A DNA stretch of 64,000 nucleotides from Escherichia coli (GCF_024298765.1 NZ_CP101210.1); one strand, 5' to 3'; shown: positions 36,277 to 44,521, counted from the first letter of the stretch. Numbers and translations: made by a program. The notes: generated by a model from the letters alone, not told the origin.

Positions 36277-36302
36277 CAGTTGCTGGCAACGTGCGATTTA
36301 TC

Positions 36303-36340
36303 TTGCCGGATGCGGTGTTAACGCTTCATCCGAGTTGGCA
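36303..36340. repeat. REP-like palindromic element (degenerate)
   Basis: TGCCGGATGCGGTGTTAACGCTTCATCCG resembles the REP consensus GCCGGATGCGGCGTGAACGCCTTATCCGGCCTAC. Confidence 0.35.
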
Positions 36341-38604: not shown

Positions 38605-38617
38605 TCCGTCCTGCAAT

Positions 38618-38655
38618 ACTGACGGATGCGAACGGGCATCCGTCAGTCCTTTCTC
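38618..38655 (+). terminator. grxD terminator hairpin
   Basis: CTGACGGATGC-GAACGG-GCATCCGTCAG followed by a T-rich tract. Confidence 0.6.
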
Positions 38656-41600
38656 TATCCCCAATCCAGCCCTTGTGGCGAACTTGAAAATCCCGCCTCA
38701 CGCAGCAGCGTAAACATCGGCGTTTGCCGGACCGGTAGGTCATTCACTTCTGTTAGCGTAAAGCGCAGCCGTGGTTCGCGACGCAGTGCGGTAGTCAGCG
38801 CGTGGAAAATCTCTGGGGCGAGTAATTCCTCTTTTTCCTGCCAGACCAGCATTTTTTTGCCACCTTGCGCCAGATAGAGTAACAATTTGCCGCCAGAAAC
38901 GACCACCAGCGCACCCGCCCGACGCGTTGGTATCAGCGTTGCCGGATGTGCAGGCCAGGGCAGAAGATTTCCCCATGCATTAGCCGGATCGTTGGCAGAG
39001 AGCGCCACTGGTGTATAGTGGCGCGTTTGCGTGGCTTGTGTCGCCAGATCGCGCAATCGGTCAATAGTCAGACGTTCAGCGAATTGCGCGCCACCCAGAC
39101 CTTCTACAAAACGACCTCGCATAATTCGCCCGGAGTCTTCCATACTTCGACAAAGCGTTTGCATCGATGGAAACCCGCCAGGGATATTTTCGGCTATCAC
39201 CGCCTGACGACTGATGATGCCGTAGCGGTCGAGCATATTTTCCGCCAGCGCCAGCATCCTTTCGGTATCGTTTAGTGGCTCCACCTGCAATAACGACCAG
39301 CGTCCAGCAAGCTTTGGTGTGTTGTAAGATACCAGCGGCGAGACGGGTTGCGCATAGACAGGACGTCCACGACGAGCCCGGTGACTGCGGCGAGTTGAGG
39401 TGCGTGTGTTGGTACTGCTGCGGGTGAGGGCGCGTAACGGTGCCCAAATGTCGCTGGTGATGACGCCTTGCCAGACCAGCGCCCATAACGCCTCTTGCAT
39501 GGCTGAGGGATCAACCGATTCGCCGATTTTATCGCGTATCCGTTGGCTGATTTGTTGTGCAAACCAGGCTCCTCCGTCAGCCAGAACCGTGACTATCGCT
39601 TGCTGCAGCGCCGAACGATTCGCCTGATTCGCTTCGGCGGGAGTGAACGATTCTGCGGCATATTCCTGTAGATGCAGTGCCACCAGACCGTCATCTTCAC
39701 CCAGCTTTTTTTGCCCCGACCAGATAACCGCACCGGTTGCCAGTAATTCATCGAGCATTTCTGGCGAATAGTCGCGTACGCGGGCAGGCAGGATCTGGCT
39801 TTCCCAGAGTGAGGCGGGTAAACCGACTCCGGCAAGCTGTTCGATCACCTGCATGACGCCATCCACGCCCTCATAAACGCCTGGCGATGTTGAGGCAAAG
39901 AGTGCCGGGCTACCATCGGTGGCGGGTAATACGCCCTGACGTTCCAGCAGCAATCGCGCATAGGTCGTGGCCGCAACGGGACGCGTCGCTTCTCTGGCGG
40001 CTTGCAGCGAGCGCAAACGCAGACGACGAAATACTTCATCGCTCACCCAGATGTCTTGTTGCAGATTCATCACCAGCCCCTGTTCGCGCAGTTGCTGAAG
40101 TTGCTCTTCGACAATGGCAATACCGAGACTAAACTCATGAGCCAGTTGTTCAGACGTGACCAGAGCATGAGCCCGGAGATAGCGCAGAAAGAGGTCGCGA
40201 AGCGGGTAACTGACTCGGTGCAAATAAATCTCTGGCAGTGACTCTGGTAGTCGTACGCCGAGGGCATCGCGCAGCCTGGCGGCATCATCCATACAGGCAA
40301 GACGCTCCTGCCCGCTAATCATCGTCGGGAAGATTCGTTTTACTGCAAGAAGATTTTCCAGATACGACGCAATCTCTTCACTGCTGCCTGTATGCCGTTG
40401 CGCCAGGTCTTCAACGGTCATTGGCCCCAGTTCGTGCAGCAGGTCGAACAATCCTTCTTCACCTTTCGCTCTTCTGCCAGGAGCCAGTCGTTGCAACTCT
40501 TCTTCCACCTGGCGAATGACCTGCGGGTCGAGTAATTCCCCCGGATCGACCTGTCCGAGTAGATTGCGCAGTAACTCGCTGTCCAGCGACAGTACGGATG
40601 CCCGGCGCTCTGCCAGCGGGGCGTCGCTCTGGTACATAAATTCCGCGACATAGCCGAACAATAAACTGGCGGCGAAAGGCGAAGGCGTAGTGGTCGTTAC
40701 ATCGGATATTTGAATTTCGCCACCGTTCAGGCGACGCATCAAACGTTCCAGCGCGGGAAGATCATAAACATCTTGCAGACATTCGCGTAGGGTTTCGAGA
40801 ATGACCGGAAAATCTGGATATCCCTGAGCGATTTCCAGCAACTGACTGGCGCGCAGCCGTTGTTGCCAGAGCGGGGGGCGATGGCCCGGCGTGCGGCCCG
40901 GCATTAATAATGCCCGCGCGGCGCATTCGCGAAAACGGGCGGCGAAAAGTGCCGAGCTGCCTACCGCCTCGCGGACAATTTGCAGCAACTTTTCTGGTTC
41001 AAACAAAAAAATCGCGGCATCGGGCAATTTACCATCGGTGTCAGGAATGCGCGCAACAATGCCGTCATCACTGGCAACCACAGACGCGTCAGCGCCCCAT
41101 AGTGCATGTATTCGCCCGGCAATCGCCAGCGCCCAGGGTTCATGCACCCGTCTTCCATAGGGAGAGTGCAAAATAATACGCCAGTCACCAATTTCATCAC
41201 GGCACCGTTCGAGGACAAGATGACGACTACCTGGAACGATGCCCGTCGCGTTGCGCTGCTCGTCAATCAACCCCTGAATATTGGCGATCGTATTTTCTTC
41301 TGCCAACCACGGGGGAATAGTCCCGGAAAAGAACGCGCCATCCGCCAGTAAATGGAGAAAATCGCCGATCATCTCGCCTAATTCTGCCGGACGTCCGTTA
41401 CCTTCACCACGCCAGAAGGGGAGCCGGGCAGAACGACCCGGAGCAGGAGTCACAATCACCTGATCGCGGGTGATTTGCTGGATCCGCCATGAGGTAGCGC
41501 CGAGAGTGATAATGTCGTTCACCCGCGACTCATATACCATCTCCTCATCCAGTTCACCCACCCGCCGCGAACCGGCCTGTTCTTCACCTTCGGGTAATAA

Positions 41601-43271
41601 CACGCTATACATGCCACGATCCGGAATGGTGCCGCCGCTGGTAACCGCCAACAATTGAGCGCCAGGTCGGGCGGTCAATATCCCGGTCTCCCGGTTCCAG
41701 ACCAGTTTGGGGCGAAAAGCAGAAAAATCGCCAGAGGGATAGCGCCCGGAAAGCATATCCAGCGTGGCGTCAAAAACACGTCTTGGCAGATCTTTCCACG
41801 GTGCGGCACGGCGTACGCGGGAGTACCATTCGTCTACCTGTAATGCATCCATCGCCGCGGCGGCAACGGTTTGCTGCGCAAGGACGTCGAGTGGATTATG
41901 CGGCGGTGTCAGGTTTTCCAGCCTGCCTGCGAACATACACTCTACAATGACTGCGGAATCGACTAAGTCACGCCTGGTTCGGGGGAAAAAAAGCCCTTTA
42001 GATACACCGCCAACCTGATGTCCGGCGCGACCAATGCGTTGTAACCCACTGGCAACAGAAAGCGGCGTTGCCACCTGAATCACCAGATCCACCGCGCCCA
42101 TATCAATCCCCAGTTCGAGACTGGAGGTTGCGACCACACAGCGTAATTCACCCGATTTCAACGCCTGTTCGGTGATTGCTCGTTGTTCTTTAGAGACGGA
42201 GCCGTGGTGTGAGCGGGCAATAAAAATGTCGCTACTTTGTACACGGTTAGAGGTTGCGCCGGAGGTCGACTCGAAATGGGCCGCATCAACGGCGATAGAT
42301 GGGGAACGCTGTAAGCGTGCGGCGTAAAGCTCATTTAATCGTGTCGTCAGTTTTTCCGCCAGCCCGCGTGAATTAGTAAAGACAATGGTCGAGCGATGGC
42401 GCAAAACTTCATCAAGGATACCCGTTTCAATATATGGCCAGATGGAGCCTTCCCGGCCGGCATGGCTGTCTTCGCCGGTGCCGCTGGCGACCGATGAGAC
42501 ATCATCCATATTGGCGACCGGTACGACAATCCGTATCTGCGGATGGCGCATTGCGGGCGGGTTGACTACCGTAACCGGGCGATCGCCACCAAGAAATGCT
42601 GCCACATCGCTGGCTGAACGCACAGTGGCAGAAAGGCCAATTCGCTGTGCTGAGGTGTGGAGCAGCGTATCGAGCCGCTCCATACTTAACGCCAGATGCG
42701 CACCACGTTTACTGCCCGCTACCGCGTGGACTTCATCAATAATTACCGTTTCGACGCCGCGTAGCGTTTCGCGCGCGCGGGAGGTCAGCATCAGATAGAG
42801 TGATTCGGGTGTGGTGATCAGAATATCCGGCGGATTACGGGTGAGTTTGCTGCGTTCCTGTGCAGGCGTATCGCCAGTACGGATCCCCACGCGAAGATTG
42901 ACTTCCGTTTCGCCGCGCCGCCGCCGTTCATCGGCAATACCCTGTAACGGGATCTGCAAGTTGCGCTGAACGTCGGTGCCCAGAGCTTTGAACGGTGAAA
43001 TATAGAGGATGCGTGAGGTTTTACGCTTATGCGCCTCGCGGGTATCTTCGCCGCCTTCGCGGAAGAGCTGATCGAGGGCGTAGAGAAATGCTGCCAGCGT
43101 TTTCCCGGAGCCAGTCGGTGCAATCACCAGCGCATGTTCGCCTCGCGCCGCCACATGCCAGGTTTGCGACTGGACAGCGGTCGGCTGTTTAAAGGCGCGA
43201 AGAAACCAGTCGCGGGTCGCCGGTGAAAACACGTCCGGCAGGGGCGATGAAGGGTTTAGATTATCTGCCAT
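38655..43271 (-). CDS. lhr: ATP-dependent DNA helicase Lhr (superfamily 2)
   Basis: 1538-aa ORF with Walker A (APTGSGKT) and DEVH helicase motifs, recognised as Lhr. Confidence 0.95.
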   Translation of the reverse strand: MADNLNPSSPLPDVFSPATRDWFLRAFKQPTAVQSQTWHVAARGEHALVIAPTGSGKTLAAFLYALDQLFREGGEDTREAHKRKTSRILYISPFKALGTDVQRNLQIPLQGIADERRRRGETEVNLRVGIRTGDTPAQERSKLTRNPPDILITTPESLYLMLTSRARETLRGVETVIIDEVHAVAGSKRGAHLALSMERLDTLLHTSAQRIGLSATVRSASDVAAFLGGDRPVTVVNPPAMRHPQIRIVVPVANMDDVSSVASGTGEDSHAGREGSIWPYIETGILDEVLRHRSTIVFTNSRGLAEKLTTRLNELYAARLQRSPSIAVDAAHFESTSGATSNRVQSSDIFIARSHHGSVSKEQRAITEQALKSGELRCVVATSSLELGIDMGAVDLVIQVATPLSVASGLQRIGRAGHQVGGVSKGLFFPRTRRDLVDSAVIVECMFAGRLENLTPPHNPLDVLAQQTVAAAAMDALQVDEWYSRVRRAAPWKDLPRRVFDATLDMLSGRYPSGDFSAFRPKLVWNRETGILTARPGAQLLAVTSGGTIPDRGMYSVLLPEGEEQAGSRRVGELDEEMVYESRVNDIITLGATSWRIQQITRDQVIVTPAPGRSARLPFWRGEGNGRPAELGEMIGDFLHLLADGAFFSGTIPPWLAEENTIANIQGLIDEQRNATGIVPGSRHLVLERCRDEIGDWRIILHSPYGRRVHEPWALAIAGRIHALWGADASVVASDDGIVARIPDTDGKLPDAAIFLFEPEKLLQIVREAVGSSALFAARFRECAARALLMPGRTPGHRPPLWQQRLRASQLLEIAQGYPDFPVILETLRECLQDVYDLPALERLMRRLNGGEIQISDVTTTTPSPFAASLLFGYVAEFMYQSDAPLAERRASVLSLDSELLRNLLGQVDPGELLDPQVIRQVEEELQRLAPGRRAKGEEGLFDLLHELGPMTVEDLAQRHTGSSEEIASYLENLLAVKRIFPTMISGQERLACMDDAARLRDALGVRLPESLPEIYLHRVSYPLRDLFLRYLRAHALVTSEQLAHEFSLGIAIVEEQLQQLREQGLVMNLQQDIWVSDEVFRRLRLRSLQAAREATRPVAATTYARLLLERQGVLPATDGSPALFASTSPGVYEGVDGVMQVIEQLAGVGLPASLWESQILPARVRDYSPEMLDELLATGAVIWSGQKKLGEDDGLVALHLQEYAAESFTPAEANQANRSALQQAIVTVLADGGAWFAQQISQRIRDKIGESVDPSAMQEALWALVWQGVITSDIWAPLRALTRSSTNTRTSTRRSHRARRGRPVYAQPVSPLVSYNTPKLAGRWSLLQVEPLNDTERMLALAENMLDRYGIISRQAVIAENIPGGFPSMQTLCRSMEDSGRIMRGRFVEGLGGAQFAERLTIDRLRDLATQATQTRHYTPVALSANDPANAWGNLLPWPAHPATLIPTRRAGALVVVSGGKLLLYLAQGGKKMLVWQEKEELLAPEIFHALTTALRREPRLRFTLTEVNDLPVRQTPMFTLLREAGFSSSPQGLDWG

Positions 43272-43363
43272 TAACGCTATTCCCCGTGAATATCATGCAT
43301 GATGCGTGGAATAGCCTCACTATAGATGCCTGAATCATTGCATGTCATCAGGCATCGACTCGA

Positions 43364-44011
43364 TTACACCTCTTCGGCGGCAGGTAGCGGCCAGCCTCCC
43401 AGACGTTTCCAGCGGTTGACGATTTCACAAAACAGCACAGCAGTGCGTTCGGTGTCGTACAGCGCGGAGTGCGCCTGGGTGCTGTCGAAGTCCATGCCAG
43501 CGGTCTGGCAAGCCTTTGACAATACGGTTTGTCCGAGTGCCAGCCCGGCCAGTGCAGCAGTGTCAAAAGTGGCGAAAGGGTGGAACGGGTTACGTTTCAG
43601 TGAGGCGCGTTCTGCGGCGGCCATCATAAAGTTGTGATCGAAATTGGCGTTGTGCGCCACCATAATGGCGCGGTTACAGCCGCTCGCTTTAATGCCTTTA
43701 CGTACAACTTTAAAAATTTCGTGCAGCGCCTCGTATTCGCTGACCGCGCCGCGATCGGGATCGTTCGGGTCAATGCCGTTGAAGGCGAGGGCCTCTGGCT
43801 GCAAATTTGCGCCGACAAATGGTTCGACGTGGAAATGTAATGTGGTGTCCGGCATCAGCCAGCCTTGTTCATCCATTTTCAGGGTGATGGCGGCAATCTC
43901 AAGCAGCGCATCGGTTTTGGCGTTAAATCCGGCTGTTTCAACATCGATCACAACAGGATAAAAACCACGAAAACGGTCGCACAGACCGGTAAGTTGAGCG
44001 TTATCGGACAT
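43364..44011 (-). CDS. rnt: Ribonuclease T (DEDDh 3'-5' exoribonuclease)
   Basis: 215-aa ORF recognised as RNase T. Confidence 0.95.
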
Positions 44012-44113
44012 CTGATTCTCTTAATACGGATAAATTGCAGCGCGCATTATGACAAATATTACTTGTCGATGCAGTAAAGATGCGGGCGCGATGAGTTCAC
44101 GCCCGGCAGGAGA

Positions 44114-44521
44114 TTAGTTGCCCAGACCGCGACCGGCGTCTTTCTCTTCGATTAACTCAATTTTGTAACCGTCCGGATCTTCCACAAACGCGATAACCGT
44201 AGTACCGCCTTTTACCGGACCCGCTTCACGGGTCACGTTACCCCCGTTTTGACGGATTTTTTCGCACGCTTCAGCGGCGTTATCTACGCTAAGCGCGATG
44301 TGACCATAAGCAGTGCCGAGTTCGTATTTATCCACGCCCCAGTTGTAGGTCAGTTCAATCACCGCTTCTTCGGTTTCCGGACCGTAGCCAACAAACGCCA
44401 GTGAGTATTTGTATTCCGGGTTTTCGCTGGTACGCAGCAGTTTCATGCCCAGCACTTTGGTATAAAAATCGATGGAGCGTTGCAGATCGCCAACGCGCAG
44501 CATGGTATGAAGAAGACGCAT
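44114..44521 (-). CDS. gloA: Glyoxalase I (lactoylglutathione lyase)
   Basis: 135-aa [33 protein letters not shown]... recognised as GloA. Confidence 0.96.

What the first reader, a model, noticed from the sequence alone, without database searches (positions are those of the whole stretch)
43272..43363. Two adjacent hairpins with related palindromic loops between rnt and lhr
The 92-nt spacer between the rnt stop and the lhr start contains two inverted repeats: GCTATTCC…GGAATAGC (43276-43315) and GATGCCTGA…TCAGGCATC (43325-43356). The loop of the first holds a perfect 12-bp palindrome ATCATGCATGAT, and the loop of the second holds the related ATCATTGCATG. The arrangement is compatible with an RNA processing or attenuation structure in an rnt-lhr co-transcript, or with a dimeric regulator site in front of lhr.
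Basis: seen in the sequence. Interest (0 to 1): 0.25.

Follow-up and report, generated by a model that had tools for sequence, protein, structure and literature searches.

The report
Promoter and hairpins between rnt and lhr
The 92-base gap between the E. coli genes rnt and lhr holds two real, conserved RNA hairpins wrapped around a separate promoter for lhr, which is an ordinary compact control region and not a new kind of element.

Summary
Both inverted repeats and both loop sequences are at the stated coordinates. Two such repeats together never appeared in 5000 shuffles of the spacer. The window is E. coli, with rnt and lhr on the minus strand.

It lies inside the rnt-side hairpin. Published Cappable-seq data for E. 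coli O157:H7 place an lhr start site 41 nt upstream of the ATG. That is exactly 7 nt after this -10 box and inside the 5' arm of the lhr-side hairpin.

The rnt-side hairpin follows the rnt stop codon in every lineage with rnt-lhr synteny, with compensatory and G.U changes. It has no U-tract, and one term-seq study lists no 3' end there. The lhr-side hairpin buries the Shine-Dalgarno-like GGGGAA. Its predicted stability is -13 kcal/mol in read-through RNA and -4.8 in promoter-derived RNA.

The spacer evolves 4 to 20 times more slowly than neighbouring fourfold-degenerate sites. The 12-bp loop palindrome is not conserved: the K-12 allele, in 42% of genomes, breaks it.

Verdict: an ordinary, previously undescribed regulatory junction of low interest.

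The parts
43364..43366 (-). rnt stop codon (TAA). The rnt-side hairpin starts 7 nt downstream of it.
43325..43356 (-). H1, the rnt-proximal hairpin: GAUGCCUGA, a 14-nt loop, UCAGGCAUC. 9 bp, predicted -13.2 kcal/mol, no U-tract.
   Evidence: Three compensatory pairs across 8 orthologues, 89.7% of cells paired; 1 of 500 shuffles reaches the observed covariation score. Also predicted by RNAalifold.
43343..43348 (-). -35 hexamer ATGACA of the lhr-proximal promoter. It overlaps the last base of the H1 5' arm and the start of the H1 loop.
   Evidence: 10 of 12 matches to consensus, 18-nt spacer.
43319..43324 (-). -10 hexamer TATAGT. It directly abuts the H1 3' arm.
   Evidence: TATCAT sits at the same position in the diverged orthologue L084.
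43312..43312 (-). Transcription start site of lhr (an A), 41 nt upstream of the ATG and 7 nt after the -10 hexamer. It lies inside the 5' arm of H2.
   Evidence: Cappable-seq of E. coli O157:H7 EDL933, PMC10469882 Table S5. The window spacer is 100% identical to O157:H7 spacers.
43276..43315 (-). H2, the lhr-proximal leader hairpin: GCUAUUCC(ACG), loop, (CG)GGGAAUAGC. Predicted -13.0 kcal/mol in read-through RNA and -4.8 in RNA that starts at the TSS.
   Evidence: One pair shows A-U, G.U and G-C across lineages; this is not statistically distinct (172 of 500 shuffles).
43280..43285 (-). Shine-Dalgarno-like GGGGAA inside the 3' arm of H2. The sequence is invariant in all Escherichia-type spacers.
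   Evidence: Predicted P(unpaired) is near 0 for the paired bases in read-through RNA.
43292..43303 (.). 12-bp palindrome ATCATGCATGAT in the H2 loop (+10 to +21 of the lhr transcript). It is polymorphic and probably incidental.
   Evidence: The K-12 allele ATCCTGCATGAT is carried by 2279 of 5425 genomes; the window allele by 1872. E. albertii has ATCATGTATGAT.
43269..43271 (-). lhr start codon
   Evidence: The N-terminus is conserved across orthologues.

Best explanation
The rnt-lhr spacer is a compact regulatory junction with three overlapping parts.

(1) H1 is an RNA stem-loop that forms in the 3' untranslated end of the rnt message, 7 nt after the stop codon. It has no U-tract and does not terminate efficiently, so RNA polymerase coming from the rnt promoter reads through into lhr. 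Its most likely role is to act as a 3'-end barrier or stabiliser for the rnt part of the message, or as a pause. This role is inferred.

(2) A sigma-70 promoter, ATGACA-18-TATAGT, is embedded in the H1 loop and 3' flank. It starts an lhr-only transcript 41 nt upstream of the ATG. The promoter match and the TSS in O157:H7 are shown.

(3) H2 pairs an upstream UAUUCC segment with the Shine-Dalgarno-like GGGGAAUAG and damps lhr translation. The TSS lies inside the H2 5' arm, so promoter-derived RNA keeps only 5 of the 8 core pairs. This may make lhr easier to translate from its own promoter than from rnt read-through RNA. This step is inferred from folding only.

The palindromic loop sequences are by-products.
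For: - Both inverted repeats exist and together exceed chance: 0 of 5000 shuffles have both.
- The promoter-like site matches 10 of 12 consensus positions and is the best in 1.5 kb.
- Cappable-seq lists an lhr TSS at -41 in EDL933. This is exactly 7 nt after TATAGT. The window spacer is identical to O157:H7 spacers.
- RegulonDB gives the K-12 lhr TSS 734 nt upstream (a distance that falls at the rnt start), and a paper citing Reuven 1995 states the genes are co-transcribed. Read-through RNA therefore also exists.
- Term-seq tables list 3' ends at the gloA and grxD terminators but none in the spacer. The scan finds no terminator-like site in the spacer.
- The MFE fold places a hairpin directly after the rnt stop in all ten spacers folded.
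- Across the eight aligned orthologues (E. coli, E. albertii, a 93% clade, a 77% lineage, four Citrobacter amalonaticus/farmeri-type spacers), H1 has 3 compensatory pairs and sense-strand wobbles (U.G, G.U).
- In all Escherichia and Citrobacter leaders, the purine-rich segment before the ATG is predicted to pair with an upstream UUCC-type segment.
- The spacer diverges 1-5% within Escherichia, against 12-39% at fourfold sites of the flanking rnt and lhr.
- Species without lhr have a canonical terminator right after rnt instead.
Against: - The TSS comes from one dataset in one strain. I could not retrieve a K-12 TSS table, and the growth conditions under which the TSS fires were cut from the stored file.
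- The promoter scan finds no site at its threshold in the 77% lineage, E. fergusonii or Citrobacter, so the strong promoter is restricted to the E. coli/E. albertii clade.
- H2 covariation rests on a single pair and is not significant. Its arm conservation could reflect the Shine-Dalgarno-like sequence and the initial transcribed sequence alone.
- The whole-region fold has z = -1.04.
- The GGGGAA lies 9-10 nt from the ATG, a long spacing for a Shine-Dalgarno sequence.
- The function of H1 is inferred. No 3' end at its base was reported, which argues against a strong exonuclease-barrier role under those growth conditions.
Confidence: 0.6

Rival explanations
1. DNA-level operator. The inverted repeat GATGCCTGA-N14-TCAGGCATC spans the -35 hexamer and the promoter spacer. 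The palindrome ATCATGCATGAT at +10 to +21 would be a second site. Both would bind a dimeric repressor or activator of the lhr promoter.
For: The repeat sits exactly over the promoter core. The Citrobacter-type spacers carry a LexA-box-like operator in front of lhr, so protein control of lhr exists in relatives. The whole spacer, loops included, is strongly conserved within Escherichia.
Against: The arms change by compensatory substitutions (G-C to A-T, T-A to G-C) and by wobbles that pair only as sense-strand RNA. An operator would be expected to keep its half-sites. The half-site centres are 23 bp apart, which is unusual for a helix-turn-helix dimer. In Citrobacter the same hairpin sits next to the rnt stop and 25-30 nt away from the LexA-like box. 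The 12-bp palindrome is broken by the K-12 allele, carried by 42% of E. coli genomes, and is broken in E. albertii. No LexA-type CTGT-N8-NCAG site lies in the E. coli spacer.
Confidence: 0.1
2. H1 is a decayed REP-like palindromic unit, a remnant of a mobile repeat, kept by chance and without a function of its own. The rest of the spacer is simply the promoter and leader.
For: The Citrobacter versions (GCCTGATAA-loop-TTATCAGGC) and the E. coli GCCTGATG...TCAGGC ends resemble the ends of the E. coli REP consensus as I recall it (the consensus is from memory). REPs typically lie just after stop codons.
Against: The spacer is single-copy in every E. coli genome. GCCTGA-N8-30-TCAGGC occurs once in the 64-kb window. 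The stricter GCCTGAT-N4-30-ATCAGGC pattern occurs only in rnt-lhr spacers among the 102 fetched loci. There is no flanking CTAC/GTAG. MG1655 annotation lists no repeat feature there. The stem is maintained by compensatory change, and the spacer is under strong purifying selection.
Confidence: 0.1
3. The hairpins form a terminator or attenuator that stops most rnt transcription before lhr, or an RNase processing site that separates the two messages.
For: A stable hairpin sits directly after a stop codon. In Citrobacter a C-rich, G-poor tract follows it and could load Rho. Species without lhr have a true terminator at this position.
Against: No U-tract follows either stem, and the terminator scan finds nothing in the spacer on either strand. 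Term-seq tables for two growth phases list no 3' end between 1728279 and the end of lhr on that strand. Co-transcription is reported. The mini-ORFs that could act as leader peptides are not conserved.
Confidence: 0.08
4. Loop-loop (kissing) interaction. The H1 loop pairs with the H2 loop in read-through RNA and locks the lhr ribosome-binding region into a compact pseudoknot.
For: The loops can form a 10-bp duplex with one bulge in E. coli (-10.5 kcal/mol, p about 0.01 against shuffled loops). In the 77% lineage the loops have entirely different sequences yet can form a 10-pair duplex (one of them G.U) with one bulge (-9.6 kcal/mol, p about 0.06). The two E. albertii loop substitutions that fall within the proposed duplex lie in the bulge or create a G.U.
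Against: This was a post-hoc test. E. fergusonii gives p about 0.18. The pairing registers differ between lineages. Common E. coli alleles break pairs: A64C in the allele carried by 42% of genomes, and G23A/C24T in strain F3_13_1_3. The H1-loop positions involved also lie in the sequence-tolerant promoter spacer.
Confidence: 0.08

Closest known systems
Internal (intra-operon) sigma-70 promoters that give a distal gene its own transcript
   Same: Near-consensus -35 and -10 hexamers with an 18-nt spacer in an intercistronic gap. An experimentally mapped TSS lies 7 nt after the -10 hexamer. The downstream gene is also reached by read-through from the upstream promoter.
   Different: The promoter core is nested inside the loop and 3' flank of a conserved RNA hairpin belonging to the upstream message. 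The TSS falls inside the 5' arm of the next hairpin.
Intercistronic or 3'-UTR stem-loops without a U-tract that protect upstream mRNA from 3' exonucleases (for example the REP hairpins between malE and malF)
   Same: A stable hairpin lies a few nucleotides after a stop codon. It has no U-tract, sits inside a co-transcribed unit, and its structure is kept by compensatory change.
   Different: It is single-copy and not a member of the dispersed REP family. No stabilised 3' end has been reported at its base. The stabilising role is inferred, not shown.
Shine-Dalgarno-sequestering leader hairpins (translational repression by an anti-SD-like upstream segment)
   Same: A pyrimidine-rich UAUUCC segment pairs with the purine-rich GGGGAAUAG just before the start codon. 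The same theme is predicted in Citrobacter leaders.
   Different: No ligand, temperature or protein trigger is known. Covariation support is weak. The proposed switch is the choice of transcription start (full hairpin versus truncated hairpin), which has not been tested.
LexA (SOS) boxes in front of DNA-repair genes
   Same: The orthologous Citrobacter amalonaticus/farmeri spacers carry TACTGTATATTTGACCAGTAT (CTGT-N8-CCAG) upstream of lhr. It lies between the rnt-side hairpin and the lhr leader.
   Different: The E. coli spacer has no such box. Its CTG...CAG repeat is spaced N16, not N10.

Membership tests
Intrinsic (Rho-independent) terminator | G+C-rich stem-loop followed directly by a run of U | tested here: not met
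   The scan reports no terminator-like site in 43272-43363 on either strand. H1 is followed by UAUAGUGAGG and H2 by GUUAAUGG.
Intrinsic (Rho-independent) terminator | RNA 3' ends map at the base of the hairpin | tested here: not met
   The term-seq tables of Adams et al. list + strand 3' ends at 1728279 (gloA). The next listed entry is the minus-strand grxD 3' end at 1733706/7, so nothing falls in 1728995-1729086. This is one dataset with thresholds.
Sigma-70 promoter | -35 and -10 hexamers close to TTGACA/TATAAT, separated by 16-18 nt | tested here: met
   ATGACA-18-TATAGT matches 10 of 12 positions. Three sites were found in 1.5 kb against 1.0 expected, and this is the best one.
Sigma-70 promoter | Primary (triphosphate) 5' end about 7 nt downstream of the -10 hexamer | tested here: met
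   Cappable-seq gives a gene-associated TSS for lhr 41 nt upstream of the start codon in EDL933. This is window 43312, 7 nt after TATAGT. The spacer is identical to O157:H7.
REP / BIME palindromic units | Many dispersed copies per genome | tested here: not met
   One place per genome in 5425 E. coli genomes. One match in the 64-kb window. Among 102 loci, matches occur only in rnt-lhr spacers.
REP / BIME palindromic units | Conserved GTAG/CTAC tetranucleotide flanking an imperfect palindrome of about 35 nt | tested here: not met
   The H1 flanks are GAGTC and TATAG. The stem ends GCCTGA/TCAGGC resemble REP ends only partly; the consensus is from memory.
Palindromic operator of a dimeric transcription factor | Half-site sequence conserved among orthologous promoters | tested here: not met
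   The 12-bp palindrome is broken by the K-12 allele (2279 of 5425 genomes) and in E. albertii, and is absent in L084 and E. fergusonii. The H1 arms covary.
LexA box (SOS regulon) | CTGT-N8-ACAG-like 16-mer overlapping the promoter | tested here: not met
   None of the 12 CTGT-N9-CAG matches in the window lies in the spacer. The box is present in five Citrobacter-type rnt-lhr spacer loci (L086, L092, L093, L099, L100; L099 has the same spacer sequence as L092).
Shine-Dalgarno-sequestering leader hairpin | Ribosome-binding purine tract base-paired in the predicted structure | tested here: met
   The paired bases of GGGGAAUAGC have P(unpaired) of 0.00-0.03 in read-through RNA. The hairpin is -13.0 kcal/mol, or -4.8 from the TSS. 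The same theme appears in all Escherichia and Citrobacter leaders.
Shine-Dalgarno-sequestering leader hairpin | Pairing maintained by covariation | tested here: inconclusive
   One pair shows A-U, G.U and G-C. 172 of 500 shuffles reach the observed score. RNAalifold gives a covariation term of +0.28.
Conserved structured RNA element (H1) | Pairing maintained by covariation across orthologues | tested here: met
   3 of 9 pairs have changes on both sides and 89.7% of cells are paired. 1 of 500 shuffles reaches the covariation score; slid controls give 22-41% paired. RNAalifold predicts the stem independently. Only about 5 independent lineages are sampled.
Any curated Rfam family | Covariance-model match | tested here: not met
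   Only two chance-level snoRNA hits (E = 3.7 and 8.8) in 42500-44500, neither on the hairpins.
Leader-peptide attenuator | Conserved short ORF plus alternative terminator and antiterminator | tested here: not met
   The mini-ORFs MPDDMQ* and MHDIHGE* are read directly from the sequence. The second loses its ATG in K-12, and both are absent in L084 and E. fergusonii. There is no terminator.

The most novel reading that the evidence does not exclude
The junction works as a transcript-origin switch. RNA that reads through from rnt carries the full H2 hairpin, possibly locked further by an H1-loop/H2-loop kissing duplex that is re-created with different sequences in a diverged lineage. Lhr is therefore barely translated from that RNA. 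RNA from the embedded promoter starts inside the H2 5' arm and has an open ribosome-binding site. The hairpin that ends the rnt message would then also physically contain the promoter that bypasses it.
Probability: 0.12. Interest if true: 0.45.

Novelty: new member of a known kind. Interest (0 to 1): 0.2.

Why it matters
Lhr is a large DNA-repair helicase, and its regulation in E. coli is essentially undescribed. It has been treated as a passenger of the rnt operon.

This analysis shows that lhr has its own promoter, supported by a published TSS that nobody appears to have discussed. It also has a leader that hides its ribosome-binding site, and the spacer is far more conserved than neighbouring fourfold-degenerate sites. 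Together these give concrete handles for asking when Lhr is made.

Relatives in Citrobacter carry a LexA-like box at the same junction. This hints that damage control of lhr exists in the family and was replaced in Escherichia.

None of the components is new in kind, so the value lies in annotation and hypotheses, not in a new concept.

Tried and rejected
- **Rfam.** A permissive scan of 2 kb returned nothing relevant.
- **Terminator.** No site in the spacer and no 3' ends.
- **Dispersed repeat or REP.** The spacer is single-copy everywhere. A REP-like pattern search in the window found only two unrelated weak matches.
- **TSS and 3'-end tables.** Supplements of PMC4782308, PMC10301672, PMC6131387, PMC11092163 and PMC7132871 were truncated, absent or lacked lhr. 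Thomason 2015 and Reuven 1995 are not held.
- **Literature.** Searches for rnt-lhr regulation found no description of the spacer.
- **L084-like genomes.** A search among E. coli genomes found none.
- **Metagenome scan.** A spacer-independent lhr coding pattern gave only 8 loci and 2 useful new spacers.
- **Promoters in orthologues.** The scans found no site at threshold.
- **Mini-ORFs as leader peptides.** Rejected because they are not conserved.
- **Fur or LexA box by eye in the E. coli spacer.** Poor match; the LexA pattern is absent.
- **MAFFT on the whole spacer.** It misaligned the E. fergusonii 5' arm, so each hairpin was aligned separately.

Full report
**1. What is there**

The window is E. 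coli: 99.9% identical over 1.2 kb to strain 104, with rnt and lhr annotated under the match. On the minus strand, rnt occupies 43364-44011 and lhr 38655-43271, leaving a 92-nt spacer at 43272-43363.

- Arms 43276-43286 and 43305-43315: 11 nt, 91% complementary, with a perfect 8-bp core.
- Arms 43325-43333 and 43348-43356: 9 nt, 100% complementary.

The loop strings ATCATGCATGAT (43292-43303) and ATCATTGCATG (43334-43344) are also present.

In 5000 dinucleotide-preserving shuffles of the spacer, a perfect inverted repeat of 9 bp or more occurred in 1.5%. A 9-bp repeat plus a separate 8-bp repeat never occurred. The folding energy of the whole region is unremarkable, however (z = -1.04).

In transcript order I call the hairpin after the rnt stop H1 (window 43356-43325) and the one before the lhr ATG H2 (43315-43276).

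**2.

A consensus scan finds ATGACA-18-TATAGT on the minus strand at 43348-43319, matching 10 of 12 positions. It is the best hit in 1.5 kb. The -35 hexamer begins at the last base of the H1 5' arm. The promoter spacer is the H1 loop and 3' arm. The -10 hexamer directly abuts the H1 3' arm.

Table S5 of a Cappable-seq study of E. coli O157:H7 EDL933 (PMC10469882) lists a gene-associated TSS for lhr 41 nt upstream of the start codon. The RegulonDB value for K-12 is 734 nt, a distance that falls at the start of rnt.

Forty-one nucleotides upstream is spacer position 52, window 43312. It is an A exactly 7 nt after TATAGT. The window spacer is 100% identical to O157:H7 spacers. The match of predicted and measured start is independent experimental support for an lhr-proximal promoter.

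The TSS falls inside the 5' arm of H2 (GGCU-A(+1)-UUCC).

**3. No terminator, no 3' end**

Neither hairpin is followed by a U-tract, and the terminator scan reports nothing in the spacer. In MG1655 the spacer is NC_000913.3 1728995-1729086.

The term-seq tables of Adams et al. list a + strand 3' end at 1728279, the gloA terminator. This corresponds to the terminator-like site at window 44105-44083. The next entry in the tables is the minus-strand grxD 3' end at 1733706/7. Nothing falls in the spacer in either growth phase.

A review-type statement that cites Reuven 1995 says rnt and lhr are co-transcribed. Read-through RNA and a promoter-derived RNA therefore both exist.

**4. Comparative evidence**

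A genome scan with Rnt returned 80 species. Only E. coli and E. albertii had lhr next to rnt. In nearly all other Enterobacteriaceae the rnt stop is followed at once by a canonical bidirectional terminator, AAAAAAAGCGACC..GGTCGCTTTTTT, and then by a convergent open reading frame that I take to be grxD.

A search with Lhr and retrieval of the encoding contigs showed rnt-lhr-grxD synteny in several further lineages:
- Escherichia sp. E4694.
- A clade with 93% Lhr identity.
- An unnamed lineage with 77% Lhr identity (L084).
- E. fergusonii (73%).
- The Citrobacter amalonaticus/farmeri group (73-74%).

Phytobacter-type Lhr lies at a different locus.

*H1.* The MFE fold places a hairpin immediately after the rnt stop in all ten spacers folded. 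On an 8-sequence alignment, 89.7% of cells pair. Three of nine pairs show changes on both sides (G-C to A-U, A-U to U-A or U.G, U-A to G-C). Only 1 of 500 shuffles reaches the observed covariation score, and slid controls pair 22-41%. RNAalifold finds the stem on its own.

The Citrobacter stems contain wobbles (U.G; further G.U pairs in the lineage-specific inner stems, read from the sequences and the folds). These pair only on the sense strand. This points to an RNA structure in the rnt-lhr message and not to a DNA operator. About five independent lineages are sampled, so the support is real but modest.

*H2.* The arms CU(A/G)UUCC and GGAA(U/C)AG are almost invariant. One pair runs A-U (E. 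coli), G.U (L084), G-C (E. fergusonii). That single event is not statistically distinct (172 of 500 shuffles; RNAalifold covariation term +0.28).

In Escherichia and Citrobacter leaders alike, the purine-rich segment before the ATG is predicted to pair with an upstream UUCC-type segment. Sequestration of the ribosome-binding region is therefore a recurring theme.

*Purifying selection.* Window against E. albertii:
- Spacer: 5 of 92 differences (5.4%).
- Fourfold sites of rnt: 22.9%.
- Fourfold sites of the first 500 codons of lhr: 38.5%.

Against two other Escherichia lineages the spacer differs at 1.1% and 3.3%, compared with 12-30% at fourfold sites. The whole spacer is under constraint.

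*The palindrome.* ATCATGCATGAT is not conserved.

| Lineage | Sequence or status | E. coli genomes |
|---|---|---|
| Window allele | ATCATGCATGAT | 1872 of 5425 |
| K-12 allele | ATCCTGCATGAT | 2279 of 5425 |
| E. albertii | ATCATGTATGAT | not applicable |
| L084, E. fergusonii | unrelated loop sequences | not applicable |

Sampled E. coli alleles change mostly loop positions. The two stem changes seen are a terminal G-C to A.C in H1 and a C-G to U.G in H2.

*The promoter.* The strong promoter is restricted to the E. coli/E. albertii clade. L084 keeps TATCAT at the -10 position but has a poor -35. The scan finds no site at threshold in L084, E. fergusonii or Citrobacter.

The Citrobacter-type spacers instead carry a conserved LexA-box-like TACTGTATATTTGACCAGTAT between the rnt hairpin and the lhr leader. 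No such box is in the E. coli spacer.

**5. How it most likely works**

Shown:
- Two non-random stems.
- A near-consensus promoter with a mapped TSS.
- No terminator features.
- H1 structure conserved by compensatory change.
- A strongly constrained spacer.

Inferred:
- H1 is the structured 3' end of the rnt message. It takes the place of the canonical terminator found in species without lhr, allows read-through, and may protect or pause.
- H2 hides the Shine-Dalgarno-like GGGGAA, whose paired bases have P(unpaired) near 0. Its predicted stability is -13.0 kcal/mol in read-through RNA. It drops to -4.8 kcal/mol in RNA that begins at the TSS, because three of the eight core pairs are lost. lhr may therefore be translated better from its own promoter than from rnt read-through RNA.

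I put 0.6 on this composite picture. The promoter itself is about 0.85. The specific roles of H1 and H2 are about 0.35-0.5 each.

**6. Rivals**

- **Operator for a dimeric regulator.** This fits the position over the promoter. It is contradicted by the covarying arms, the sense-strand wobbles, the 23-bp half-site spacing, the separation of H1 from the LexA-like box in Citrobacter, and the polymorphic palindrome.
- **REP remnant.** This fits the GCCTGA/TCAGGC ends, but the element is single-copy and lacks the flanking tetranucleotide.
- **Terminator, attenuator or processing site.** This is contradicted, and by the non-conserved mini-ORFs.
- **Loop-loop kissing duplex.** E. coli gives -10.5 kcal/mol (p about 0.01). 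L084 gives -9.6 (p about 0.06) with unrelated loop sequences. E. fergusonii gives p about 0.18. The test was post hoc and the registers differ between lineages. Common E. coli alleles break pairs. I keep it as the most novel reading that is not excluded, at roughly 0.1.

**7. Comparison with known systems and novelty**

All the parts are standard: an internal promoter, a stem-loop after a stop codon without a U-tract, and a leader hairpin that sequesters the ribosome-binding site. No Rfam family matches, and no held paper describes this spacer.

The nesting is unusual: the promoter lies inside one hairpin and the TSS inside the next. It is still a new member of known kinds, not a new kind.

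Interest is low (0.2). The value is a better annotation of lhr regulation and a few cheap, testable predictions.

Noticed in passing
window 38655-43271 (lhr); L001 2883-3111: 1042 of 5425 complete E. coli genomes match less than 80% of the 1.2-kb rnt-lhr query. In those inspected, an internal lhr deletion leaves only the first 111 nt and last 126 nt, annotated as 'endonuclease' and 'helicase' pseudogene fragments. The rnt-lhr spacer is intact in these genomes.
   Followed up: partly
L004-L044 and others, first 60 nt after the rnt stop: Most Enterobacteriaceae lack lhr. There rnt is followed at once by a conserved bidirectional terminator, AAAAAAAGCGACC..GGTCGCTTTTTT, and then by a convergent open reading frame that I take to be grxD. 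Among these 80 genome loci, lhr next to rnt occurs only in E. coli and E. albertii. Separate Lhr-based look-ups added other Escherichia lineages, the Citrobacter amalonaticus/farmeri group and one unnamed lineage.
   Followed up: partly
L086 2409-2424; L092 1407-1422; L093 619-634; L100 359-374; L099 5619-5634: Citrobacter amalonaticus/farmeri-type rnt-lhr spacers (142-146 nt) contain a conserved LexA-box-like sequence, TACTGTATATTTGACCAGTAT. It is preceded by a C-rich tract after the rnt hairpin. This suggests SOS control of lhr in that lineage. The E. coli spacer has no such box.
   Followed up: partly
window 38655-44011 compared with L002, L003, L088: lhr is much more divergent than rnt within Escherichia. 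Fourfold-site differences are 0.26-0.39 for lhr and 0.12-0.23 for rnt, with Lhr protein identity only 92-95% over the first 500 residues. E. fergusonii Lhr is only 73% identical to E. coli Lhr despite the same synteny. This hints at recombination or replacement of lhr alleles.
   Followed up: no
L091 1283-1500; L095, L101, L102 upstream of lhr: Phytobacter-type Lhr (73% identical) lies at a different locus, between a 155-aa gene and a LysR-family gene. It keeps a leader with ACTATTC(T/C)GG ... ACAGGGAGCAGG that resembles the Citrobacter lhr leader. Part of the leader seems to travel with lhr.
   Followed up: no
window 44083-44105 (-) and window about 38605-38640: The gloA terminator hairpin coincides with a published term-seq 3' end at 1728279. 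A grxD terminator hairpin (ACTGACGGATGC..GCATCCGTCAGT) abuts the lhr stop codon and coincides with strong 3' ends at 1733706/7. It differs from the terminator used in species without lhr.
   Followed up: partly
window about 38870 (NC_000913.3 1733486, minus strand): The Adams et al. supplementary file 2 lists a significant antisense 3' end inside the 3' part of lhr, opposite to lhr transcription.
   Followed up: no
window 36296-36332: A decayed REP-like palindrome (GCCGGATGCGGTG..ACGCTTCATCCG), found while looking for REP copies to compare with H1.
   Followed up: no
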